Source: Comamonadaceae bacterium
GTDB lineage: Bacteria; Pseudomonadota; Gammaproteobacteria; Burkholderiales; Burkholderiaceae_C
DNA length: 18,783 bases
Assembly: GCA_947374485.1 (NCBI GenBank)
Contig: CANCCF010000067.1
Span: 1-18,783, forward strand
Reading direction: 5' to 3'
The number at the start of each line of letters is the position of its first letter. The stretch's first letter is position 1. The notes beneath the pieces are model-generated. The model was not told the origin of the DNA, ran no database searches, and was given only the letters and a program-made list of their open reading frames with translations. This document shows, piece after piece, positions 2,954-11,382 of this stretch. Made by a program: the position numbers and the translations under genes.

Positions 2954-3038
2954 CTTCGAAAGCCATGGAGCGGCGAAGGAGGGGCGAAGGAGCGGCGAAC
3001 CCTAGGCCGCTACCCCGGCAAGGGCTCGCCAATCAACC
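2954..3038 (-). pseudogene. degenerate tRNA-Gly(GCC)-like remnant (possible relic att site or decayed duplicate)
   Basis: CTTCGAAAGCCATGGAGCGG (2954-2973) matches 19/20 the sequence spanning the 3' end and downstream flank of the intact tRNA-Gly (5146-5165, CTTCGAAAACCATGGAGCGG). Further in there is a CCTTGCC anticodon-loop-like string (GCC at 3017-3019), a GGTTCG T-loop-like string and a GTTGATTGG-GAGC D-arm-like string. No acceptor 5' strand and no canonical T-arm can be formed. An 11-bp-period GGCGAA(GGAG) triplication (2972, 2983, 2994) disrupts it. Confidence 0.4.
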
Positions 3039-3328
3039 CGTTTACAAGCCAAAACCACTTCGGACTTGGGCTTGATTTTTGTCTAGGGCACCAGGTGTTG
3101 CCCCCGCTTCAATACACCATTTATAGGCGGGATCCGGAGCAACTGGATGCCTGAAGCAGCGATCCTCACATCCGCAACTTGCAAAATGGAAACGGGTTTG
3201 TCAGATATGTACCAGGTTTGATACCAGCCATCACCATGTACCGACGTGACGCCTTCGCACGTGTTCGACAACTCGCTCTGCGGCTGCGGACGTGGGCCCG
3301 GATCAAACTGCGCCTCGGGTTGAAATCA

Positions 3329-5023
3329 ATGGATGACTCCGCTTACACGGAGTGGGTCAGACGGTATGACACACTGGATGGCAACAAAAGGGCCGCTTTA
3401 GCCGAATTGTGCAATGGATTTGCCCATCGGCCGAAAATATCCGTTCTGATGCCGATTTGCAGTCCAATTCACAATTGGCTTGTCGAAGCGATCGAGTCGG
3501 TCCGGAATCAGATATATCCAAATTGGGAACTGTGCATCACTGTGGCCACATCCATTGATCCATCCGTTCGGGCCAGTCTCGAAGACTTCTCCAGAAAAGA
3601 CAAACGCATCAAGCTGGCACTTGTTACAGCGCCCGGGCGATTTTCTATCGCTTCAAATAGTGCGCTTGAACTTGCGACAGGTGAATGGATTGCGTGGCTG
3701 GGTCACAACGATATATTGGCAGAAACGGCCTTGTGCCGGGTCATGGAAGCGTTCAACCTTGATTCAAATGCCGTATTTTTCTACTCTGATGAAGACAAAG
3801 TCAATTCCAAAGGGATTCGATGCGAACCCCTTTTCAAACCTGACTGGTCGCCACATTTGGCGTGTTCCCAGGCATATATTGGGCGCCTGTTCGTTTTCAA
3901 GGCAATACAGGCTAAACCCGAGCTTGAGGAAGATTCAGTTGGTTCACATGACTACGCGCTATGGCTCTCCATCACGAGCAAGCTGAAACGGAACCAGATT
4001 CATCATATAAGCTGCGTGCTCTATCACCGAAGGAAGGGCGCATACCCGACTGCAAGCATCACATCCAGTGAAAACAGGGCAAACCTGAAAGCCTTGAACA
4101 GGTTCATCTCCGACAGGTATTGCGATGAAACCTTGTATGCAAAAAATGGCAAGTCGAAGTTCACATATTCCCTGGAGCGCCGTCTTGGCGTGGAAATCCT
4201 CATCTCGATAATTATTCCAACAAAGGACAAAGTTGATCTTCTGTCAGATTGCATTCAAAGCATTCGCAAAAAGTCAACATGGCATAATTTTGAGATTATC
4301 ATTATCAACAACAATTCCATCGAAAAATCGACTTTTGAGTACCTTGACAAGATCAGGGCAATCGATGCGAGGATTACTGTTGTGGATGCACCGATTGAAT
4401 TTAATTGGTCACGAATCAACAATATAGGAATATCCAGGGCCCATGGGGACTTGTATGTATTTTTAAATAATGACACCCTCATTGTTGAGGGGACCTGGCT
4501 TGAAGCACTGTCAACTTATGCATTGCTCCCGGATGTAGGGGTTGTTGGGGGACTTTTGACGTATGAGGATGGAAGCATTCAGCACTCAGGTGTGGTAGTG
4601 GGCATGGGAGGCTGGGCGGATCATATTTTCTGCACCCAAGCTGCCACGCACGCCTCGGGTACAGGTTTTGTATCTCCGGTATTGACTCGCAATGTACTTG
4701 CCGTGACAGGTGCATGCATGGCAATTTCAAGAAGAACAATCAGGTCAATTGGCCTGTTTGATGAGAACTTTGTTATCTGCGGAAGCGACGTGGAGATGTG
4801 CATACGTTCCCACAAATACGGCTACTTTAATGTAATGTGTGCAGAAGCCAGGTTATTTCACTTTGAATCGAAAACCCGATCATCTTTTGTCCCGGCAATT
4901 GATATTGAACAATCAAGGGAAAAGTATGCGCCCTATCGAAAGGAAAAGATCGACCCGTTCTTCAATGAGAATCTTTCACTGAATACAACATATATTCGTT
5001 TGAAGGATTCACCTGTTGCTTGA
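3329..5023 (+). CDS. two-domain family-2 glycosyltransferase (GT-A fold), orphan
   Basis: The ORF is open from 3179 (TTG). In-frame ATGs lie at 3236 and 3329. I prefer 3329 because the AT-rich composition of the gene starts about there. Domain 1: ISVLMPICSP...AIESVRNQIYPNWEL...YSDEDK (DxD). Domain 2: ISIIIPTKDKVDLL..CIQSIRKKS..FEIIIINNNS...VFLNNDT (DxD-like)...GACMAISR. The pre-domain YTEWVRRYDTLD string is typical of O-antigen/EPS-type GT2 enzymes. Confidence 0.85.
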   Translation: MDDSAYTEWVRRYDTLDGNKRAALAELCNGFAHRPKISVLMPICSPIHNWLVEAIESVRNQIYPNWELCITVATSIDPSVRASLEDFSRKDKRIKLALVTAPGRFSIASNSALELATGEWIAWLGHNDILAETALCRVMEAFNLDSNAVFFYSDEDKVNSKGIRCEPLFKPDWSPHLACSQAYIGRLFVFKAIQAKPELEEDSVGSHDYALWLSITSKLKRNQIHHISCVLYHRRKGAYPTASITSSENRANLKALNRFISDRYCDETLYAKNGKSKFTYSLERRLGVEILISIIIPTKDKVDLLSDCIQSIRKKSTWHNFEIIIINNNSIEKSTFEYLDKIRAIDARITVVDAPIEFNWSRINNIGISRAHGDLYVFLNNDTLIVEGTWLEALSTYALLPDVGVVGGLLTYEDGSIQHSGVVVGMGGWADHIFCTQAATHASGTGFVSPVLTRNVLAVTGACMAISRRTIRSIGLFDENFVICGSDVEMCIRSHKYGYFNVMCAEARLFHFESKTRSSFVPAIDIEQSREKYAPYRKEKIDPFFNENLSLNTTYIRLKDSPVA

Positions 5024-5113
5024 AAAGATGATGCTACTGCCTAGATTGCGCCAGATCGAAGAAGCATAGCCAAGGCGGAAAAAGAGTAAGGCCTGAAAAA
5101 AGTCGCCGGAAAG

Positions 5114-5140
5114 CAAAAAGCCCATCCTTTCGGACGGGCT
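5114..5140 (-). terminator. rho-independent terminator downstream of tRNA-Gly
   Basis: The minus strand reads AGCCCGTCC-GAAA-GGATGGGCT followed by TTTTTGC. This is a 9-bp stem (one G.U) with a T-run, 18 nt after the tRNA 3' end. Confidence 0.7.
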
Positions 5141-5157
5141 CTTCACTTCGAAAACCA

Positions 5158-5233
5158 TGGAGCGGGAAAAGAGGCTCGAACTCTCGACCTATACCTTGGC
5201 AAGGTATCGCTCTACCAACTGAGCTATTCCCGC
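5158..5233 (-). tRNA. tRNA-Gly (anticodon GCC), CCA encoded
   Basis: The reverse complement is GCGGGAATAGCTCAGTTGGTAGAGCGATACCTTGCCAAGGTATAGGTCGAGAGTTCGAGCCTCTTTTCCCGCTCCA. It folds as a perfect 7-bp acceptor (GCGGGAA/TTCCCGC), D-arm GCTC/GAGC, anticodon stem ATACC/GGTAT with loop TTGCCAA, and T-loop TTCGAGC. It is near-identical in layout to E. coli tRNA-Gly(GCC). Confidence 0.93.
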
Positions 5234-5257
5234 ATGGTGGCTACTTGCGTAACCGTT

Positions 5258-5302
5258 TGGTGGCCTGGGGCGGAATCGAACCACCGACACAAGGATTTTC
5301 AA
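5258..5302 (-). repeat. distal att repeat: exact 45-bp copy of the tRNA-Phe 3' portion (anticodon loop to CCA)
   Basis: TGGTGGCCTGGGGCGGAATCGAACCACCGACACAAGGATTTTCAA is identical 45/45 to 11307-11351. Identity stops abruptly on both sides. No 5' half of a tRNA follows. Confidence 0.95.
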
Positions 5303-5465: not shown

Positions 5466-5912
5466 CTACTTGCCAAAGCCCTTACGCAGTGCACCGCTTG
5501 CAGCGTCCATCGCTGCATCCAGTTCACCGCCCTCAACTGCCTCGCGCACCACTGCCAGCACACTTGCCAACTCGCTTGCGCTGGCAACCTCAATTGCCGT
5601 CAGCCCCTTGCTGTTAAGTGCAAGGCACTTGCTGCCGTATTTCACCTGCAGCGCCAGCTTGCCGCCTTCCGTCTTAAACCACCATTGCCGCGCCTTGCGT
5701 GTCTTTTGCTCTGTGCTTTGCACGCCAGTTTCCGCGTCAACTACCGTAACTGTCTTGCTTGCCGTATAGGTAGTGCCAGCCGCAAACGCGGTAGCCATTG
5801 CTATTTGCTGATCAATCTTTACGCACAGTTTGGAGCGGCGCAATTGCACGGGTGCAACCTGCGTAACCTTCTTTGCGGCTGTGAACTTGAGTGAGGCGAG
5901 ACCTGTTGCCAT
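5466..5912 (-). CDS. hypothetical protein (148 aa), island-encoded
   Basis: An ATG at 5912 is preceded by GGAAGGAAAG (RBS) 4 nt upstream; the track's longer version starts at TTG 5927. The protein is MATGLASLKFTAAKK...RQWWFKTEGGKLALQVKYGSK...GGELDAAMDAASGALRKGFGK. It resembles a recurrent ~150-aa island-associated protein type I recall seeing, but I cannot name the family with confidence. Confidence 0.6.
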   Translation of the reverse strand: MATGLASLKFTAAKKVTQVAPVQLRRSKLCVKIDQQIAMATAFAAGTTYTASKTVTVVDAETGVQSTEQKTRKARQWWFKTEGGKLALQVKYGSKCLALNSKGLTAIEVASASELASVLAVVREAVEGGELDAAMDAASGALRKGFGK

Positions 5913-5999: not shown

Positions 6000-6284
6000 C
6001 TATTTGCGTATTGGTTTTCGCCCAGTCAATTTCGCTTGCTCTTTATTTGCAGCGCTTTGCATCTGTCCGTATTTCATAAACGCCATCTCCTTATCAAAAT
6101 TTGTTACCTGCACCTGGTTATCAGCCGTTTGTGCGATTTCCGCTGCCAATGCACCCTGCAGCTTTTGCTGGCGCTGTTGATCGCTTTGAACGGGGTAAGT
6201 TTGTGCCACTTGCGCTGCCAATTGCCGTTGCTTCATATTGGCAGCAGCCACTGCATTTTGTGGGGCGATTTCACTGTATTTCAT
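6000..6284 (-). CDS. hypothetical small Gln/Ala-rich protein (94 aa)
   Basis: An ATG at 6284 has AGGA 7-8 nt upstream. The gene is co-oriented with, and 87 bp upstream of, the 148-aa gene. The sequence is Q/A-rich and probably helical, with no recognisable domain. Confidence 0.5.
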   Translation of the reverse strand: MKYSEIAPQNAVAAANMKQRQLAAQVAQTYPVQSDQQRQQKLQGALAAEIAQTADNQVQVTNFDKEMAFMKYGQMQSAANKEQAKLTGRKPIRK

Positions 6285-6435
6285 ACTAAATCCTATCTTC
6301 TTCCATATTTATTCATAAGATTTGGCACGAAATATTATGGTTTTATTTGGTGCACATAAATACTGTATGAATATATACACCATACGACAAAAAACAGCAT
6401 ACAACCCAAACACCAGAACTACGGAGAAGCAAGCG

Positions 6436-6888
6436 ATGCGAAACTGGCTTATTGGCAAAAAGCAGGAGTTTCAGTTTGCTGTAACTCTTACTATCAAACA
6501 GACTATTACTGTGAAGAATGACAAAGGAACATACAAGCACAGGCTAAAGCGCAATGACGTAGATGGGATTGCAGAGAGGTTTACGCAAAAACTGAATGAG
6601 CAAGTGTTTGGGCATAGTGCAAAGCGTCACAAGCGCAAGCTGCTCTACATACCCATAGTTGAGGGCGTACACAATGGCAAAAACTTACACCTTCACTTTG
6701 CTATAGGGCACTACCCTAAAGATCGTCTGCCAAATCATTTTCCTCAATTAGTGCAAAACGCCATCACGCTGGTTACTGAACTGGATGAACAGCATAAGGT
6801 TGATGTGATGGACAGTGGTTGGTTTGAATACATAACGAAAGAGCTAAGCGCCAGAAACACGGACAACGTGTTATGGCATTTGGCTTAA
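6436..6888 (+). CDS. small HUH-motif protein, rolling-circle Rep/relaxase-like (150 aa from the preferred start)
   Basis: Three motifs appear in canonical HUH-endonuclease order: FAVTLT (motif I-like, 6475-6492), NLHLHFAIG (His-hydrophobic-His, 6688-6696), and WFEYITKE (YxxK-type catalytic Tyr candidate, Tyr codon 6829-6831). ATG 6436 has GGAG 9 nt upstream. Alternative in-frame starts are 6322 (TTG), 6337 and 6367. The layout resembles the Inovirus Gp2 / YfjJ-YagK type of island protein, but that assignment is from memory of motif architecture only. Confidence 0.55.
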   Translation: MRNWLIGKKQEFQFAVTLTIKQTITVKNDKGTYKHRLKRNDVDGIAERFTQKLNEQVFGHSAKRHKRKLLYIPIVEGVHNGKNLHLHFAIGHYPKDRLPNHFPQLVQNAITLVTELDEQHKVDVMDSGWFEYITKELSARNTDNVLWHLA

Positions 6889-6924
6889 CAGCATTACTGG
6901 CTTAGTGCCTCTTGCTGTCGTTGC

Positions 6925-6948
6925 ATTAAAGCTGAGTGAAGCTTTAAT
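6925..6948 (+). other. perfect 9-bp stem / 6-nt loop hairpin 37 bp downstream of the HUH-protein gene
   Basis: ATTAAAGCT-GAGTGA-AGCTTTAAT. No T-run follows, so it is not a typical intrinsic terminator. It is a candidate nick/ori-type hairpin or simply an RNA stability element. Confidence 0.4.
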
Positions 6949-7264
6949 TGGCTGCGCTTTCTTAAAAATTCGCTACTTCATCAACATAAAAGTCGTCAGC
7001 TACAAAGCAACACGAACACAGCGAGAACGCACGATAGCAAGCGTAGACAGCGTAAGGCATAGCAGAGTAGCTGACTGCTGTAGACGCTGCTGCAACGCTG
7101 GCAGGACATGCAGGAGCAGCGCATAAGAAAATAACAATATTCTTAAGTGGCTTGATTTTATTGGCTATTTTCAGCGCACCAAATAATTTGCCTATTGATC
7201 GACTTCCTGCACTAAATAAAGCAGACTAATGCGTATTAAAAAATTTGGTGAACTGGAGAAATTT

Positions 7265-7831
7265 ATGGCACAAGCAAAATCACTGACGGACGCAGAACTG
7301 CAACAGGTTTTGAATTACATAACAGAGCACACATTTGCGCAGCGCAATCGTGCAATGCTCCTTGTCAGCTTTTATGCTGGCATGCGAGTTGGCGAGATTG
7401 CCAGCTTAAAGCTTGGCGACGTGGTGAACGCAGACGGCAAAGTAAACGCAGAAGTGCGATTGGCGGCAGAGCAAACAAAGGGGCGGCATGCGCGAACCGT
7501 GTTCTTGCCTAAAAAGCTGCGCGATGAACTGCAGAGCTATGTGGACATGCGCTCAGTTAAAAACCCAGCACACCCCCTGTTCATAACGGCGGGGCGCAGG
7601 GCGTTTACGGCGAACGTGATGACGCAGCACTTCTTTTGGCTGTATCGCAGTGCGGGCGTGTCTGGCGCAAGCTCACACAGCGGCAGGCGCACATTCATTA
7701 CGAACTTGGCAGCGAAGGGGATTGGAGTGCGTGTGCTGGCTGGACTGGCAGGGCATCGCAGCATTGCAGTGACACAGCGATACATTGATGTGAACGACGA
7801 TATGAAGCGCAACGCTGTGGAGATGATTTGA
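7265..7831 (+). CDS. minimal tyrosine recombinase (catalytic domain only, 188 aa; FimB/FimE-like architecture)
   Basis: The full catalytic set is present: R in FYAGMRVGEIASL, K in EQTKGRHARTVFL, H-x-x-R in SHSGRRTF, and H and Y in AGHRSIAVTQRYI. Only about 30 residues precede box I, so there is no separate SAM-like core-binding domain. ATG 7265 is preferred; the upstream in-frame ATG 7229 would give 200 aa. Confidence 0.85.
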   Translation: MAQAKSLTDAELQQVLNYITEHTFAQRNRAMLLVSFYAGMRVGEIASLKLGDVVNADGKVNAEVRLAAEQTKGRHARTVFLPKKLRDELQSYVDMRSVKNPAHPLFITAGRRAFTANVMTQHFFWLYRSAGVSGASSHSGRRTFITNLAAKGIGVRVLAGLAGHRSIAVTQRYIDVNDDMKRNAVEMI

Positions 7832-7850
7832 GCGTTACTTAAAGTAACAC
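7832..7850. repeat. 19-bp palindromic site A (GCGTTACTTAAAGTAACAC)
   Basis: It begins 1 nt after the recombinase stop codon. The 7-1-7 core GTTACTT-A-AAGTAAC is a perfect palindrome. It matches the reverse complement of site B (9122-9140) at 18/19 positions. Confidence 0.8.
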
Positions 7851-7867
7851 TTCGCTCTCCCCAATCA

Positions 7868-8129: not shown

Positions 8130-9113
8130 ATGGCTAAGGCAGCAGTTAACAGCGAAATCGCAACTAAGGTAATAGGTTATATTGACAGGCTTGCAGAGCA
8201 ACAAGCAGAGGTCACTGAGTACAATGAACGTAGCAATGAAGCGTTGTACAAAATGCTTGGAAAGGTTAAACAAGTTTGTGAGTATGTAAATGCCTGCGAA
8301 GATCCCGCAGATATTGTAAAGAAGATGCGCAAGATGCTGAAAGCTGATCGCAGCATTAAGACGCAAGCCAACAGTAGTATCGCGTCTATTATTATCAAGT
8401 GTCTTGTTCCCACAAGCCGCAAGACTCAGTGCGTATATGCCAGCGTTATTAAAGCCGCAGAGGCTAATGGCATTACAGGGGAAGGGCTTGCAGAGTACAT
8501 TCGCGCAAATAAAGGGATTGAAAATTTGCGAAAGATTCATGCAGGCGTAACGACGAAAGCTGCGAAAAGCTTGGACGCTGAAATCGCAAATGCTTCACAA
8601 AGGCTGCTGCGTATGCTGTGCGATACAAGCTCCAAACAGCGGCTTGGCGTAGTTAAGCTTGAGGGTGTTAAAAGCGTTAGCATGTTGCACGACAGGTGCG
8701 AGCTTACGCACTTGATGTGCAAGGAGAATAAGGTGACTGGTGAGCTTGAAATCGTCGCAGTCGCCTACCCCACGCTCCAACTGCAAAAGCTCGTACTGGA
8801 CAACTATGTTGCAGCCATGCAAGTTGCAGCCGTGCAGAAGACGAACGAGTTTTACGCAGAATGCAAGCGTATTGGTGCGGACATGGACACTGTGAATACT
8901 TGGCGCGAAGCCAACGGCATACAGTCTGGTAGCCAGGCGATTGCGTTGCTCGCAAGCATTGGCGAGATGCTTGACGCTGACATGGTGCGGCGTGTGAATG
9001 AAGCAGAGGCTGCTGCCAGCAAACGCCTTGCCATTGCGTATTCATCGCAAGTTGTGGGCGTTGACTGCAGCAAGCAGTCCGCGTCCCAGTCAAACTTCGT
9101 TATCGCCGCTTAG
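8130..9113 (+). CDS. hypothetical protein (327 aa), no recognisable domain
   Basis: The ORF is long and clean, with an ATG plus AAGGAG RBS, island-like composition, and a terminator downstream. It looks predominantly helical and soluble. No motif I can assign. Confidence 0.7.
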   Translation: MAKAAVNSEIATKVIGYIDRLAEQQAEVTEYNERSNEALYKMLGKVKQVCEYVNACEDPADIVKKMRKMLKADRSIKTQANSSIASIIIKCLVPTSRKTQCVYASVIKAAEANGITGEGLAEYIRANKGIENLRKIHAGVTTKAAKSLDAEIANASQRLLRMLCDTSSKQRLGVVKLEGVKSVSMLHDRCELTHLMCKENKVTGELEIVAVAYPTLQLQKLVLDNYVAAMQVAAVQKTNEFYAECKRIGADMDTVNTWREANGIQSGSQAIALLASIGEMLDADMVRRVNEAEAAASKRLAIAYSSQVVGVDCSKQSASQSNFVIAA

Positions 9114-9121
9114 CCGCCACA

Positions 9122-9140
9122 GTGTTACTTTAAGTAACAC
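9122..9140. repeat. 19-bp perfect palindromic site B (GTGTTACTTTAAGTAACAC)
   Basis: A perfect 9-1-9 palindrome 8 nt after the stop codon of the 327-aa gene. Its central TTTAA is the reverse complement of the TTAAA in site A. Confidence 0.8.
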
Positions 9141-9144
9141 CACA

Positions 9145-9177
9145 AAAAAGCCCACTCGTTAAAACAGTGGGCTTTTT
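9145..9177. terminator. bidirectional rho-independent terminator between the convergent 327-aa and lipoprotein genes
   Basis: AAAAA-AGCCCACT-(9-nt loop)-AGTGGGCT-TTTT. The 8-bp stem is flanked by an A-run and a T-run. Confidence 0.75.
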
Positions 9178-9209
9178 AGCATTGACGGAATTATATTTTT
9201 TAAATAAGC

Positions 9210-9818
9210 CTATATTTTTTGCTTAACCTCTTTGCAATTTAAAGAAGTTCTGTAAATTATTACATAATTATTTGGCGTTACAACCATTTTGCCATTGGAT
9301 TTGGAGAAATTGGGATGCACATTTAAATTGTAAGTTTCATCCAATATCGTCAAATTGGTCCTATCCAACACTACAATTTTTGCGCCCAATATTGAGTCTT
9401 TATTTGGTAGCCATTTTTTAAAGAATGGACTTGTTTTAGTATCATTATCTTTACTATCTATCCAGTCCCCAGTAAATTCCCTCACATCCTTCACAGCGCA
9501 ATCCCACGCATATTTGTAACTACTGGACGTTACTTCACACAATGGTAGCCTGTCATCTTTTATAACATTATCACCTTTAACTATAATATATTGCTTACCA
9601 ACAATATATTTTTGAGTAACAGCATCTGCGGGACTATGAAGACTTTTAACATCACTTGGCTCAGCTATCCCCTGCTCACTCCAAGTCCCATCGCAATCCA
9701 AAAACTTTTCCGCATCTGCATTTGAGGAGGACTTATTAAATAGCTCAACGACTCTTTCACAGCCAGTTATACAAAGCGCCAATAATAATATTGTACATAT
9801 TTTAGTAAAATTTTGCAT
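9210..9818 (-). CDS. putative lipoprotein (202 aa), very AT-rich gene
   Basis: The N-terminus MQNFTKICTILLLALCITGCERV is a signal peptide with lipobox I-T-G-C. There are four further Cys in the mature part. The gene is markedly more AT-rich than even the rest of the island. Confidence 0.75.
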   Translation of the reverse strand: MQNFTKICTILLLALCITGCERVVELFNKSSSNADAEKFLDCDGTWSEQGIAEPSDVKSLHSPADAVTQKYIVGKQYIIVKGDNVIKDDRLPLCEVTSSSYKYAWDCAVKDVREFTGDWIDSKDNDTKTSPFFKKWLPNKDSILGAKIVVLDRTNLTILDETYNLNVHPNFSKSNGKMVVTPNNYVIIYRTSLNCKEVKQKI

Positions 9819-9899: not shown

Positions 9900-11195
9900 T
9901 TAAATTGCCGCACTACCGCTTTGCTTGTCGTCAGTTGCCTTCGTTTTGGTTGCTTCCACCTTCTTCACCCCCATCCGCTTGCCTGCAATAACATCTGCTT
10001 TTAGCGCGGGCGTTAAATGTCCATAGTACCGCTCAATCATCCCTATGCTCGTGCCCATCTGCTTTGCCAGTGTCGCAATTGGCATGCTGTCCTGCAGTAG
10101 CGCGAAGTGAGCATAGGTGTGGCGAAGGCTGTACAGCGTACGTTTTTCCTTCACATCCTTGTTCTTATCCAAGCCGCTGTCACGCATTAGGTGACGGAAT
10201 GTGCCGTTCAGCGCATTCGTTGCTTCACCAGTCCGCAACCTGAACACCAGCACATCCAGCTTCTTTTTCAGCAGTGCATCAAACTCCAGCTTCTTCAAAT
10301 CGTCAAAGCGCTCCTGTATGCGCTTCAAGTAATCCTCCGCTGCATGCCGTGCAATCAGTGTCCGTTTGCCTGTCTTGCCATTGACGGTGAACTGCAAGTA
10401 GCGCTGCCCGTCTTTCGCAATCCATTCAACATCACGCCATTTCAAATTCAACGCTTCCGTGCCATGCCGCATCCCTGTGTTCGCCAGCACCAGCACATAG
10501 TCCCGCAGCAGTTCACGCATGTGCTGCGTCTTCGCCATGTGCCCTATCGTGCTCCACTTCACCATGTAGCTTGTAAGGGACTTGTATTCTGCAAAGCTAA
10601 ACGCCTCGCGCGGCGTAGCCTTCGCGCCCTTATTCTTCATTTTGGGCACTTGCGATTGCGACATCCACCCGCGCTGCACAGCCGCATCAAACACACGATT
10701 GAGGGCAGACGTGTGCGTTGTGACGGTGCTGGCAACTGGCACCTTCTTCATTTCTTTTGTGCGCCAGTCGTCAAATGCCTTCAAGTGCTCATAGCCAATC
10801 GTGCCAATGTTGAGCTTGCCAAAAAACGGGATGAGATAACGGTTGGTGGCTGCGATGTAGCTGTTGTAAACGCTTTTGCCCACGCCGCCATCAAGCTGAT
10901 CCTGCATTTCCTTCACTGCAATCTTTGCGATTGAGTCAAAGCGCTTGGTAACGATTGGCAGATTTTCTGCCTTTAAAAATCGTGCCCTGTCATATGCCTC
11001 GCAAGCTGCCTGCGTTGCGTATTCCAAGTTGCGCTGTTTGGTGCTGATACGTTGCCACTTGCTGTCCCGCAACTTAAAGCGAGCCTGCCAAATTTTGCTG
11101 TCCAGCCGCTTGTAAAGCACCACTTCACCATCGCGTGCATACACGATGTGCATAGGTGCTTTGCTGGACTTGGGGGCTGCAGATGAGTTCGCCAT
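9900..11195 (-). CDS. int: tyrosine-type site-specific integrase (island integrase, about 431 aa)
   Basis: The C-terminal catalytic domain has LANTGMRHGTEALNLKWRDV (Arg), LYSLRHTYAHFAL (H-x-x-R region) and MIERYYGH (Tyr). An N-terminal arm/core-binding region is present (KIWQARFKL...). The gene lies directly next to tRNA-Phe. The ORF is open to 11288; I prefer ATG 11195 (MANSSAAPK...). Confidence 0.9.
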   Translation of the reverse strand: MANSSAAPKSSKAPMHIVYARDGEVVLYKRLDSKIWQARFKLRDSKWQRISTKQRNLEYATQAACEAYDRARFLKAENLPIVTKRFDSIAKIAVKEMQDQLDGGVGKSVYNSYIAATNRYLIPFFGKLNIGTIGYEHLKAFDDWRTKEMKKVPVASTVTTHTSALNRVFDAAVQRGWMSQSQVPKMKNKGAKATPREAFSFAEYKSLTSYMVKWSTIGHMAKTQHMRELLRDYVLVLANTGMRHGTEALNLKWRDVEWIAKDGQRYLQFTVNGKTGKRTLIARHAAEDYLKRIQERFDDLKKLEFDALLKKKLDVLVFRLRTGEATNALNGTFRHLMRDSGLDKNKDVKEKRTLYSLRHTYAHFALLQDSMPIATLAKQMGTSIGMIERYYGHLTPALKADVIAGKRMGVKKVEATKTKATDDKQSGSAAI

Positions 11196-11271
11196 GTTGT
11201 GCGTTACAAATGAACTGCTGTTCAGTGTATACGCATAAGCAGGAACTGTGCTAAGACCGTGTAATGGAAAA

Positions 11272-11297
11272 GCGTAGCACACTTTCATGTGCTACGC
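11272..11297. promoter_or_regulatory. 10-bp perfect inverted repeat (6-bp spacer) at the island edge, candidate integrase/regulator binding site
   Basis: GCGTAGCACA-CTTTCA-TGTGCTACGC lies 10 bp from the tRNA-Phe 3' end and upstream of the int start. Each arm contains the TGTGCTAC motif also found at 5372-5379; the shorter TGTGCTA core recurs at 11247-11253. Confidence 0.5.
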
Positions 11298-11306
11298 CTT
11301 ATGGGA

Positions 11307-11382
11307 TGGTGGCCTGGGGCGGAATCGAACCACCGACACAAGGATTTTCAATCCTCTGCTCTACCGACTGAGCTACCGGGCC
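11307..11382 (-). tRNA. tRNA-Phe (anticodon GAA), CCA encoded; integration target
   Basis: The reverse complement is GGCCCGGTAGCTCAGTCGGTAGAGCAGAGGATTGAAAATCCTTGTGTCGGTGGTTCGATTCCGCCCCAGGCCACCA. It has a canonical D-arm, anticodon loop TTGAAAA and T-loop TTCGATT, and is close to E. coli tRNA-Phe. The acceptor stem carries one C5.A68 mismatch (GGCCCGG versus CCAGGCC). Confidence 0.92.

What the first reader, a model, noticed from the sequence alone, without database searches (positions are those of the whole stretch)
6436..7228. Small island protein with HUH Rep-like motifs followed by a perfect hairpin and a 340-bp non-coding stretch
The 150-188-aa ORF carries, in canonical order and spacing, an FxVTLT-type motif I, an HLH(FAI) His-hydrophobic-His motif and a C-terminal YITK (YxxK) motif. 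That is the signature of HUH single-strand DNA endonucleases (rolling-circle Rep proteins, relaxases, Y1 transposases).

Thirty-seven bp downstream sits a perfect 9-bp-stem hairpin (6925-6948) without a T-run. A long gap (6889-7228) follows, containing a T-poor tract (about 7005-7070) and GCAGC/GCTGC-rich inverted repeats. HUH enzymes typically nick at hairpin-presented sites.

A 6-kb island that carries both an integrase and an HUH nickase could replicate or mobilise as a circle after excision (integrative mobilisable element or satellite-like lifestyle). The protein is much smaller than classical relaxases or Reps.
Basis: partly seen in the sequence, partly recalled or inferred. Interest (0 to 1): 0.65.

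Follow-up and report, generated by a model that had tools for sequence, protein, structure and literature searches.

The report
Mini rolling-circle nickase on tRNA island
A 6-kb mobile island inserted in a tRNA-Phe gene carries a very small DNA-nicking enzyme of the kind that starts rolling-circle replication, with a strongly conserved double hairpin right after its stop codon that is probably its target; the gene set recurs in hundreds of lake-bacterium sequences and has not been described in the papers I could search.

Summary

- **Gene.** The real gene is 6367-6888, 173 aa, not 150 or 188 aa.
- **Conservation.** Across 96 relatives at 20-53% identity, only H108, H110 and Y155 never change. 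T40/T42, E99 and K158 are at least 90% conserved.
- **Fold.** The AlphaFold model (pLDDT 87) matches microvirus, G2P and P2-A replication initiators and the AAV, parvovirus and circovirus Rep nuclease domains. Pfam REP_ORF2-G2P is hit by 39 of 59 homologs, mostly near threshold.
- **Hairpin.** The 9-bp hairpin (6925-6948) is real and covaries. Together they form a ~95-nt element that abuts the Rep stop codon in 87 of the loci searched.
- **Motif.** The heptamer CTTTAAT, which is the Ff gene-II nick context, occurs there in 96 of 102 loci.
- **Rest of the gap.** It is A-rich, T-poor and poorly conserved. It ends in a terminator-like hairpin and the leader of a tyrosine recombinase that has only the catalytic domain.
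- **Island.** It is bounded by perfect 45-nt tRNA-Phe repeats. A relative was assembled as a 7,994-bp circle.

Most likely this is the replication module of an excisable island. A mobilisation role is not excluded. No activity was tested.

The parts
5258..5302 (.). Left island boundary: a 45-nt copy of the 3' half of tRNA-Phe
   Evidence: It is a perfect direct repeat of 11307-11351.
5469..5912 (-). DUF6641 protein (148 aa), the conserved divergent neighbour of Rep
   Evidence: It hits Pfam DUF6641 at 8e-8 and phrog_31551 at 2e-21. A homolog lies divergently upstream of Rep in 83 of 88 loci. The AlphaFold model has no PDB match.
6000..6284 (-). 94-aa Gln/Ala-rich protein of unknown function
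   Evidence: It is conserved in the close relatives L042 and L123. A 108-aa ORF occupies the same position in other loci.
6367..6888 (+). Stand-alone HUH Rep-type endonuclease, 173 aa. Motif I is FAVTLT (37-42). E99 is a probable third metal ligand. The HUH motif is H108-L-H110 and the Tyr motif is Y155-ITK158.
6889..6917 (+). Hairpin 1. The outer stem is CAGCA/TGCTG and the inner stem GGC/GCC. The internal-loop bases TTACT and TCT are unpaired and nearly invariant.
   Evidence: Covariation is seen. The inner pair occurs as A-T in 9 sequences, C-G in 8 and G-C in 5. The outermost pair occurs as C-G in 12, T-A in 6 and A-T in 3.
6925..6948 (+). Its 3' arm is more conserved than pairing alone requires.
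6942..6948 (+). CTTTAAT heptamer at the 3' foot of hairpin 2. By analogy with Ff gene II protein, the candidate nick site lies between T6945 and A6946.
   Evidence: The heptamer lies 47-93 nt after the Rep stop in 96 of 102 distinct loci, against a background of 0.25 per kb. The M13 origin was read. The nick position CTTT/AAT comes from PMC11765958. This is an inference, not a demonstration.
6882..6976 (+). The whole conserved Rep-linked cis element as matched by the covariance model
   Evidence: The window scores 79 bits, E = 4e-17. Of 89 matches in 1.0 Mb, all are on the + strand and 87 abut a Rep stop codon. The element is 100% identical to L042 through both hairpins, while the two Rep proteins differ at 12% of residues.
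6977..7120 (+). A-rich, T-poor spacer that includes the GCAGC/GCTGC repeats
   Evidence: The composition is conserved across loci. The sequence is not.
7124..7264 (+). Region proximal to the small recombinase: a weak hairpin (TAAGAA/TTCTTA, 7124-7145) that corresponds to the relatives' terminator-like hairpin 3, followed by the leader and Shine-Dalgarno sequence
   Evidence: This region stays with the recombinase when cargo is inserted between it and Rep. Hairpin 3 covaries.
7265..7831 (+). Small tyrosine recombinase (188 aa; 200 aa if started at 7229) with the catalytic domain only
   Evidence: Pfam Phage_integrase scores 1.4e-25 and covers residues 18-190 of the 200-aa form. It lies downstream of Rep on the same strand in 49 of 56 loci.
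8130..9818 (.). Variable cargo: a 327-aa helical protein (+) and a 202-aa lipoprotein (-)
   Evidence: Neither hits any family. Relatives carry different cargo.
9900..11288 (-). Large tyrosine integrase (462 aa)
   Evidence: It hits phrog_1 integrase at 2e-29 and abuts tRNA-Phe.
11307..11382 (-). tRNA-Phe(GAA), the integration target. The right-hand repeat is 11307-11351.

Best explanation
The 173-aa protein is an active, single-tyrosine HUH endonuclease of the replication-initiator (Rep) class, reduced to the nuclease domain. Its target is the ~95-nt double-hairpin element that starts at its own stop codon.

Proposed cycle:
1. The large integrase excises the 6-kb island from tRNA-Phe as a circle.
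2. Rep binds the hairpin element and nicks the + strand. The most likely position is at or near CTTT|AAT at the foot of hairpin 2. It becomes linked to the 5' end through Y155, with H108/H110 (and probably E99) holding the metal ion.
3. A host helicase and polymerase then carry out rolling-circle synthesis. This amplifies or maintains the excised island and yields single-stranded copies.
4. The small catalytic-domain-only tyrosine recombinase downstream acts in a separate step. It either resolves multimers or works as a relaxase.

Shown here: the fold, the invariant catalytic residues, the conserved covarying element tied to the gene, the island boundaries, and a circular form of one relative.

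Inferred, not shown: nicking, the nick position, replication, and the recombinase's role.
For: **Enzyme**
- H108, H110 and Y155 are the only invariant columns in 96 representatives at 20-53% identity. T40/T42, E99 and K158 are at least 90% conserved.
- The AlphaFold model (pLDDT 87, pTM 0.81) puts motif I and HUH on beta-strands and Y155 on a helix.
- Against viral models, Foldseek gives 40 hits below E = 1e-3 (top 50 mostly probability 1.0). The few named ones are microvirus replication initiators, an ORF2/G2P-domain protein and a 'Replication gene A' protein; most have no name in the table.
- Against the PDB, the AAV Rep, parvovirus NS1 and PCV2 Rep nuclease domains make up most of the top 50, with E about 0.01-0.1.
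- Pfam REP_ORF2-G2P is the only recurrent family, hit by 39 of 59 homologs with a best E of 7e-8.

**Cis element**
- Of 17 proposed pairs, 95.4% of cells are paired and 7 pairs show compensatory changes. None of 500 shuffles reaches this, and slid controls give 23-55% pairing.
- 87 of 89 model matches abut a Rep stop codon, and all 89 are on the + strand.
- The element stays with Rep when cargo separates Rep from the recombinase.
- It is 100% identical to L042 while the Rep protein has diverged by 12%.
- CTTTAAT is present in 96 of 102 loci, including subfamilies at about 30% Rep identity. One locus shares 12 of 12 bases with the M13 nick region.

**Element**
- 45-nt att repeats bound the island.
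- Contig L004 has 127-nt identical ends and is a circular permutation of the integrated copy in L003.
Against: - No activity data exist.
- The window protein itself scores only 16 bits against PF23343, below the cut-off of 27.8.
- PDB fold matches are weak, with TM about 0.4.
- hhalign against M13 gene II protein is not significant, so the CTTTAAT resemblance could be chance.
- In Ff phage the nick lies in a hairpin loop. Here the motif lies in the 3' arm.
- No helicase, single-strand origin or copy-control gene was recognised.
- Only one of 22 whole contigs of island size shows a circular signature. A circle is expected from excision alone and does not prove replication.
- No homolog is found on any plasmid or phage record.
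Confidence: 0.55

Rival explanations
1. The HUH protein is a conjugative relaxase rather than a vegetative replicase, and the double hairpin is an origin of transfer. Rep-type nickases serve this way in Firmicutes integrative elements (the MOB_T class; NicK of ICEBs1 does both jobs). The island would then hitch a ride on a co-resident conjugative element.
For: The chemistry and the cis-site architecture are the same as in the main explanation. The island is small, has no transfer genes and sits beside an integrase. Integrative hitchers are very common (bioRxiv 10.64898/2026.01.13.699239).
Against: There is no Pfam Rep_trans or relaxase hit. No coupling-protein or accessory genes are present. 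The fold matches are to viral replication initiators. No helper element is known.
Confidence: 0.2
2. The non-coding stretch mainly serves the downstream small recombinase. That protein would be a tyrosine-recombinase-type (MOB_M-like) relaxase, and the region upstream of it would be its origin of transfer. This is the layout of plasmid pIGRK: repR, a 456-bp oriT, then mobK. The HUH protein would then only be the replicon initiator.
For: The recombinase has only the catalytic domain, with no room for a core-binding domain, as in MobK, MpsA and TcpM (PMC8152469). The pIGRK gene order is the same. MOB_M relaxases are reported to be abundant in chromosomes, with 96% near an integrase. The ~250 nt proximal to the recombinase travel with it.
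Against: The most conserved part, hairpins 1-2, stays with Rep and not with the recombinase when cargo is inserted between them. The recombinase-proximal part looks like a terminator plus a promoter and leader. Its plasmid homologs are annotated simply as site-specific integrases. The MOB_M profile could not be run and pIGRK could not be fetched. This rival is compatible with the main explanation for Rep itself.
Confidence: 0.15
3. The hairpins act at the RNA level, as 3'-end structures that stabilise or terminate the rep transcript. The protein would be a DNA-binding regulator that has kept HUH residues for structural reasons.
For: The hairpins lie in the 3' untranslated region on the coding strand. 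The stems contain four G-T pairs and no A-C pair, which fits folding of the + strand as RNA or as single-stranded DNA.
Against: There is no T-run after either hairpin. Unpaired bases and the 3' arm are conserved beyond what pairing needs. The element is 100% identical over about 75 nt between elements whose Rep proteins differ by 12%. There is no Rfam match. Only the catalytic residues are invariant, which argues for catalysis.
Confidence: 0.07
4. It is a single-strand transposase of the IS200/IS605 or REP-associated (RAYT) kind that moves a hairpin-bounded segment.
For: It has a similar size (about 150-170 aa), HUH comes before Tyr, and a hairpin sits next to the gene. A RAYT structure appears among the weak PDB matches.
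Against: The hairpin element is single-copy in the island. It lies inside an island bounded by tRNA att repeats that has its own integrase. The Tyr motif is YxxK with a motif I, as in Reps. No Y1_Tnp Pfam hit was found. Only 2 of 87 loci have a second copy.
Confidence: 0.03

Closest known systems
Replication initiators of small ssDNA phages grouped in Pfam REP_ORF2-G2P (microvirus ORF2/VP4-type and inovirus G2P-type) and P2 gene A protein
   Same: It has the same HUH fold with motif I, then HUH, then YxxK. Pfam similarity is seen at the family level. The origin-like hairpin element lies next to the gene. The CTTTAAT core is identical to the Ff gene II nick context.
   Different: It is only 173 aa, against about 250-570 aa for the viral hits, with nothing beyond the nuclease domain. 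It has a single conserved Tyr. There is no capsid or morphogenesis gene nearby. It resides in a tRNA-integrated island. No sequence similarity to M13 gene II protein itself is detectable. Most members score at or below the Pfam cut-off.
Plasmid pIGRK (Klebsiella): repR, a 456-bp oriT region, then mobK, a tyrosine-recombinase-like relaxase
   Same: The gene order is the same: an initiator gene, a non-coding region of about 350-500 bp with inverted repeats, then a tyrosine recombinase that has only the catalytic domain.
   Different: pIGRK is a free 2.3-kb plasmid with no integrase or att sites. Homology of RepR to this Rep, or of MobK to this recombinase, could not be tested. No plasmid record matches the Rep.
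Integrative elements that replicate by rolling circle after excision (ICEBs1 NicK; satellite prophages of filamentous phages such as TLC with Cri) - from my own knowledge of the literature
   Same: They combine site-specific integration with an HUH or Rep-type nickase that acts on the excised circle.
   Different: Those use Rep_trans or full-length Cri/G2P proteins and belong to much larger conjugative elements, or use the host XerCD system. Here the element is 6-8 kb with its own two tyrosine recombinases and a DUF6641 partner.
AAV Rep, parvovirus NS1 and circovirus Rep nuclease domains
   Same: These are the best solved-structure matches. The arrangement of an acidic residue, HUH and Tyr is the same.
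   Different: They are eukaryotic viral proteins fused to SF3 helicases. Structural similarity is low (TM about 0.4) and sequence identity is about 11%.

Membership tests
HUH endonuclease superfamily, Rep class | His-hydrophobic-His metal-binding motif on a central beta-strand | tested here: met
   HLH lies at residues 108-110 on strand 108-114 of the model. H108 and H110 are invariant in 96 representatives.
HUH endonuclease superfamily, Rep class | Catalytic Tyr (YxxK) on a helix C-terminal to HUH | tested here: met
   Y155-ITK158 lies on helix 152-156. Y155 is invariant and K158 is at least 90% conserved.
HUH endonuclease superfamily, Rep class | Motif I (uuTuT) on the first strand, N-terminal to HUH | tested here: met
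   FAVTLT lies at 37-42 on strand 37-43. T40 and T42 are at least 90% conserved.
HUH endonuclease superfamily, Rep class | Alpha/beta fold shared with solved or predicted Rep nuclease domains | tested here: met
   Against BFVD, 40 hits fall below 1e-3 (top 50 mostly probability 1.0); the named ones are replication initiators. In the PDB, AAV Rep, NS1 and PCV2 Rep make up most of the top 50, although weakly.
HUH endonuclease superfamily, Rep class | Site-specific single-strand nicking with a covalent 5'-phosphotyrosine link | not testable with these tools
   This needs biochemistry.
Pfam PF23343 REP_ORF2-G2P | Score at or above the gathering cut-off of 27.8 bits | tested here: inconclusive
   The window protein scores 16.2 bits and fails. 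Five homologs scanned individually score 26.0-28.2 bits and one likely mis-called fusion 31.2. 39 of 59 match at E <= 0.01. The family sits at the edge of the model.
IS200/IS605 Y1 transposases and RAYTs | Gene flanked by left- and right-end hairpins, multiple genomic copies, YxxxQ-type Tyr helix | tested here: not met
   The hairpin element is single-copy in the island. The gene lies inside att-bounded islands. The Tyr motif is YxxK. There is no Y1_Tnp hit.
HUH conjugative relaxases (MOB_F/P/Q/V) | Catalytic Tyr N-terminal to the HUH motif | tested here: not met
   Here the order is HUH (108-110) and then Tyr (155).
MOB_T / Rep_trans relaxases | Pfam Rep_trans domain | tested here: not met
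   No hit even at E <= 10.
Inovirus or microvirus prophage | Coat, morphogenesis (Zot/pI) or capsid genes within the element | tested here: not met
   No island ORF hits such families in Pfam, PHROGs or NCBIfam. The 327-aa protein has no Walker A motif. Cargo differs between relatives.
tRNA-integrating genomic island | Direct repeat of the tRNA 3' end at the far boundary, integrase next to the tRNA, deviant composition | tested here: met
   Perfect 45-nt repeats lie 6,049 bp apart. The integrase at 9900-11288 abuts tRNA-Phe. GC is 39-54% inside the island against about 64% in the flanks.
MOB_M tyrosine-recombinase-like relaxases (applies to the downstream small recombinase) | Tyrosine-recombinase catalytic domain without core-binding or arm-binding domains | tested here: met
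   The protein is 188-200 aa, and Phage_integrase covers residues 18-190. The feature definition comes from PMC8152469.
MOB_M tyrosine-recombinase-like relaxases (applies to the downstream small recombinase) | Score of at least 84 bits with the CONJscan MOB_M profile; functional oriT upstream | not testable with these tools
   The profile is not available here. pIGRK is not in the plasmid collection.

The most novel reading that the evidence does not exclude
These are a previously undescribed and widespread class of 6-8-kb tRNA-integrating islands of freshwater Burkholderiales whose spread runs through a rolling-circle, single-stranded intermediate. Two versions fit the evidence. In one, they are satellites of filamentous phages: a minimal gene-II-type nickase and an Ff-like origin, but no coat genes. 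In the other, they are an integrated pIGRK-like unit in which a mini-Rep replicon is coupled to a tyrosine-recombinase-type relaxase. In both, DUF6641 would be a new accessory factor.
Probability: 0.2. Interest if true: 0.75.

Novelty: new variant of a known kind. Interest (0 to 1): 0.55.

Why it matters
Small genomic islands drive strain-level diversity in abundant lake bacteria such as Polynucleobacter, Limnohabitans and Rhodoferax. How they persist and move after excision is mostly unknown.

This work points to a conserved four-part core: a large integrase, DUF6641, a mini-Rep with its hairpin element, and a catalytic-domain-only recombinase. It recurs in at least 413 metagenomic loci. The nickase family has 888 clusters at 50% identity.

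If the mini-Rep is active, it would be among the smallest self-contained rolling-circle initiators paired with a defined ~95-nt target. That would be useful both for understanding island biology and as a compact tool for nicking or single-stranded DNA production.

It would also give the first functional handle on DUF6641 and on this group of truncated tyrosine recombinases.

Tried and rejected
- **PDB sequence searches.** A single-sequence search and a profile search gave only spurious lectin-repeat hits.
- **Curated protein families.** NCBIfam gave nothing for Rep and PHROGs only one marginal hit of unknown function (E = 0.039). PADLOC gave nothing for Rep or any other island protein tested.
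- **Rfam.** Nothing was found in the non-coding region.
- **Whole-gap folding.** The energy is not unusual (z = -0.8). Only the local hairpins matter.
- **tblastn of Rep and DUF6641.** Rep has no match in the plasmid or phage records, and DUF6641 (searched against phages only) has none there.
- **IMG/VR.** One locus in 2.9 million viral contigs, so there is no support for frequent packaging.
- **DUF6641 structure.** The model is good but has no PDB fold match. Its function stays unknown.
- **hhalign of the family profile against M13 gene II protein.** Not significant.
- **Long proteins in the representative search.** These look like gene-calling fusions and are uninformative.
- **Fetching pIGRK to test homology.** The accession is absent, and one guessed accession was wrong.
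- **More circular contigs.** None was found among 22 island-sized whole contigs.
- **The 19-bp palindromes flanking the 327-aa gene as recombinase sites.** They are absent from all relatives, and their 1-nt spacer is unlike tyrosine-recombinase core sites.
- **Conserved small ORF in the gap.** The apparent peptide similarity (LKLSEALIG) is the hairpin 2 DNA read in frame.
- **Similarity of the hairpin 1 loop CACGTT to M13.** It is not conserved in the window itself, so it was dismissed.
Full report
**What is in the window**

The flanks have about 64% GC. A stretch from roughly 3.0 to 11.4 kb drops to 39-54%. Two tRNA genes lie in it: tRNA-Gly (5158-5233, -) and tRNA-Phe (11307-11382, -). A perfect 45-nt direct repeat, 5258-5302 and 11307-11351, copies the 3' half of tRNA-Phe and bounds a 6,049-bp island.

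From left to right the island holds:
- a DUF6641 protein (5469-5912, -);
- a 94-aa protein (6000-6284, -);
- the ORF under study (+);
- a non-coding stretch;
- a small tyrosine recombinase (+);
- a 327-aa protein (+) and a 202-aa protein (-) that match no family;
- a 462-aa integrase (9900-11288, -) next to the tRNA.

**Checking the observation**

The ORF, the three motifs and the perfect 9-bp hairpin at 6925-6948 are all there. Two coordinates need correction.

The first is the gene start. The gene therefore starts at ATG 6367 and encodes 173 aa. In this numbering the motifs are FAVTLT 37-42, HLH 108-110 and YITK 155-158.

The second is the recombinase start. Its homologs begin at the equivalent of ATG 7265, which is preceded by GGAGAA, and the closest relative is called at 188 aa. 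The non-coding stretch is therefore 6889-7264.

No ORF in the gap is shared among relatives. An apparent conserved peptide is just hairpin DNA read in frame. The hairpin alone is not very improbable: 0.21 are expected per 6 kb, and 15% of random islands have one. Its reality rests on conservation.

**Is it an HUH enzyme?**

Direct profile searches of the window protein are weak. As 150 aa it hits no Pfam family. As 173 aa it scores 16 bits against REP_ORF2-G2P, below the cut-off of 27.8. At the family level the signal is consistent: 39 of 59 homologs hit that model at E <= 0.01, with a best of 7e-8, and no other family recurs.

An AlphaFold model built on the 59-sequence alignment is confident (pLDDT 87, pTM 0.81). 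It places motif I and the HUH motif on beta-strands and the Tyr on a C-terminal helix. Against predicted viral structures it gives 40 matches below 1e-3 (top 50 mostly probability 1.0). Most have no name in the table; the named ones are microvirus replication initiators, an ORF2/G2P-domain protein and a 'Replication gene A' protein. Against solved structures the scores are weak (E about 0.01-0.1, TM about 0.4). Even so, most of the top 50 are AAV Rep, parvovirus NS1 and circovirus Rep nuclease domains.

The strongest evidence is conservation. An exhaustive profile search found 888 clusters at 50% identity, nearly all 150-210 aa. In an alignment of 96 of them, at 20-53% identity to the window protein, the only invariant columns are H108, H110 and Y155. 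T40, T42, E99 and K158 are at least 90% conserved. E99 lies nine residues before the first His. From my own knowledge of AAV Rep, that is where its acidic third metal ligand sits.

**The hairpin and the non-coding stretch**

Aligning the gap from 16 loci showed that conservation is concentrated right after the Rep stop codon. A 22-sequence alignment of the first ~95 nt reveals two hairpins:
- Hairpin 1 (window 6889-6917) has outer stem CAGCA/TGCTG and a 3-bp inner stem.

Of 17 proposed pairs, 95.4% of cells are paired and 7 pairs carry compensatory changes. None of 500 shuffles reaches the observed values, and slid controls pair at 23-55%. The stems contain four G-T pairs and no A-C pair, a weak hint that the + strand is the one that folds.

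Conservation goes beyond what pairing needs. The internal-loop bases TTACT and TCT are nearly invariant. The 3' arm of hairpin 2 is also invariant where the 5' arm changes.

A covariance model of the element found 89 matches in 1.0 Mb of related loci, all on the + strand, and 87 abut a Rep stop codon. The element stays attached to Rep in loci where one to three cargo genes separate Rep from the recombinase. The last ~250 nt of the gap stay with the recombinase instead. That part holds a covarying hairpin, usually T-tailed and terminator-like, followed by a conserved leader.

The window and its nearest relative (Rep 88% identical) are 100% identical from the stop codon through both hairpins. 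After that, identity collapses to near random. A second relative (Rep 85%) shows about 97% identity in the element and about 80% in the tract.

The middle tract is A-rich (35-52% A) and T-poor (8-24% T) in nearly all loci, but its sequence is not conserved. The gap is thus a Rep-linked cis element, a compositionally biased spacer where cargo can insert, and the recombinase's own upstream region.

**A candidate nick site**

The heptamer CTTTAAT sits at the 3' foot of hairpin 2 (window 6942-6948). It occurs 47-93 nt after the Rep stop in 96 of 102 distinct loci, against a background of 0.25 per kb. It persists in subfamilies whose Rep is only 30-45% identical:
- Burkholderia: GCTCTTTAATGA
- L028: CTCTTTAATAGCG
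- L037: TTCTTTAAT
- L026: GCTTTAATAGTGG

The M13 plus-strand origin reads GTTCTTTAATAGTGGAC. Gene II protein nicks it at CTTT/AAT (PMC11765958). L026 therefore matches 12 of 12 bases.

I treat this as a lead and not a result, for three reasons. The family profile shows no significant similarity to M13 gene II protein itself. In M13 the site lies in a hairpin loop rather than an arm. And the comparison was made after the fact.

**Context and distribution**

The module recurs widely. DUF6641 lies divergently upstream of Rep in 83 of 88 loci. The small recombinase lies downstream on the same strand in 49 of 56 loci. The trio persists down to about 30% Rep identity in Burkholderia and Paraburkholderia, where the recombinase is still about 61% identical.

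Hosts are mainly freshwater Burkholderiales: Polynucleobacter, Limnohabitans, Rhodoferax and other Comamonadaceae. Methylophilaceae and a few Gammaproteobacteria also carry it. At least 413 metagenomic loci carry it; the contigs are JGI-style and WGS records whose habitat the output does not state. Integration sites vary. Besides tRNA-Phe, tRNA-Leu, -Lys, -Met and -Pro genes lie within the fetched flanks of other loci, and some loci show no tRNA nearby. Cargo differs between relatives.

No island protein matches phage structural, conjugation or defence families. There is no Rep homolog in 72,556 plasmid or 50,697 phage records. Only one is found in IMG/VR.

**A circular form**

Contig L004 is 8,121 bp and has identical 127-nt ends. 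It is an exact circular permutation of the element that is integrated in L003 between short direct repeats with core GAGTGGGAGTGAA. That is the signature of a 7,994-bp circle, or of a tandem array, of a relative whose Rep is 53% identical. No other island-sized contig showed it. A circle shows excision. It does not by itself show replication.

**How it most likely works**

After the large integrase excises the island, the mini-Rep binds the double hairpin next to its own gene and nicks the + strand through Y155, with metal bound by H108/H110 and probably E99. Host helicase and polymerase then perform rolling-circle synthesis. I put about 0.9 on the HUH Rep fold, about 0.75 on catalytic activity, about 0.6 on hairpins 1-2 being its target, and 0.55 on the composite statement.

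The main rivals are:
- The same chemistry is used as a relaxase for conjugative hitch-hiking (0.2).
- The downstream recombinase, which has only the catalytic domain, is a MOB_M-type relaxase using its upstream region as oriT, as in pIGRK where the order is repR, a 456-bp oriT, then mobK. This is compatible with Rep being the replicon initiator (0.15).
- The hairpins act only as RNA (0.07).
- The protein is an IS200/IS605-like transposase (0.03). This is rejected on copy number, context and motif type.

**Comparison with known systems and novelty**

The protein works like a Rep of small single-stranded DNA phages and rolling-circle plasmids. It sits at the edge of Pfam REP_ORF2-G2P. It differs in being only the nuclease domain with a single Tyr, and in residing in a tRNA-integrated island with two tyrosine recombinases and a DUF6641 partner.

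HUH nickases on integrative elements are known, from my own knowledge of the literature: ICEBs1 NicK, MOB_T elements, TLC Cri and integrated inoviruses. The kind is therefore not new. The family, its cognate element and the four-part module appear to be undescribed. No paper in the searchable library mentions DUF6641 or PF23343. Papers on freshwater islands that I read discuss tycheposons, not this module.

I rate it a new variant of a known kind, with moderate interest (0.55).

Noticed in passing
window 2954-5180: A second, older island remnant. A 35-nt stretch at 2954-2988 is 83% identical to 5146-5180, which overlaps the 3' end of tRNA-Gly. The two bracket a low-GC segment that carries a 614-aa family-2 glycosyltransferase (3179-5023) and no integrase.
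   Followed up: partly
window 7834-7851 and 9121-9138: Two copies of a ~19-bp palindrome, GTGTTACTT(A/T)AAGTAACAC, form a perfect 18-nt inverted repeat. They bracket the 327-aa cargo gene and begin 3 nt after the recombinase stop. Each is followed by a terminator-like hairpin. The palindrome is absent from all 121 related loci.
   Followed up: partly
L004 (whole contig) versus L003 296-8305: A relative of the island was assembled as a 7,994-bp circle, with 127-nt identical contig ends and an attP-like junction. The same element is integrated in another assembly.
   Followed up: yes
L074 6695-6790 and L015 10127-10222: Two loci carry a second, same-strand copy of the hairpin element 1.6-3.4 kb downstream of the first. 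Both extra copies also include the last ~15 nt of the Rep ORF (TGGGATTTAGCGTAA). This suggests a recurrent breakpoint just 5' of hairpin 1.
   Followed up: partly
window 7229-7831: The small tyrosine recombinase has only the catalytic domain, and its likely true start is ATG 7265. It resembles the MOB_M class of recombinase-like relaxases in architecture and in having a long conserved upstream region. Membership could not be tested.
   Followed up: partly
window 11272-11297: A perfect 9-10-bp hairpin (GCGTAGCAC...GTGCTACGC) overlaps the start codon of the large integrase, next to the tRNA-Phe att site. It may be a regulatory or arm-type site.
   Followed up: no
window 5469-5912 (DUF6641): This protein is Rep's near-constant divergent neighbour. 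It gives a confident AlphaFold model (pLDDT 84: a long helix, a beta-meander and two helices) with no match in the PDB, so it may be a new fold or an accessory factor.
   Followed up: yes
window 5158-5302: The left att copy of tRNA-Phe lies only 25 nt from tRNA-Gly. Before the insertion, tRNA-Phe and tRNA-Gly were therefore adjacent genes, and both have served as integration targets.
   Followed up: no
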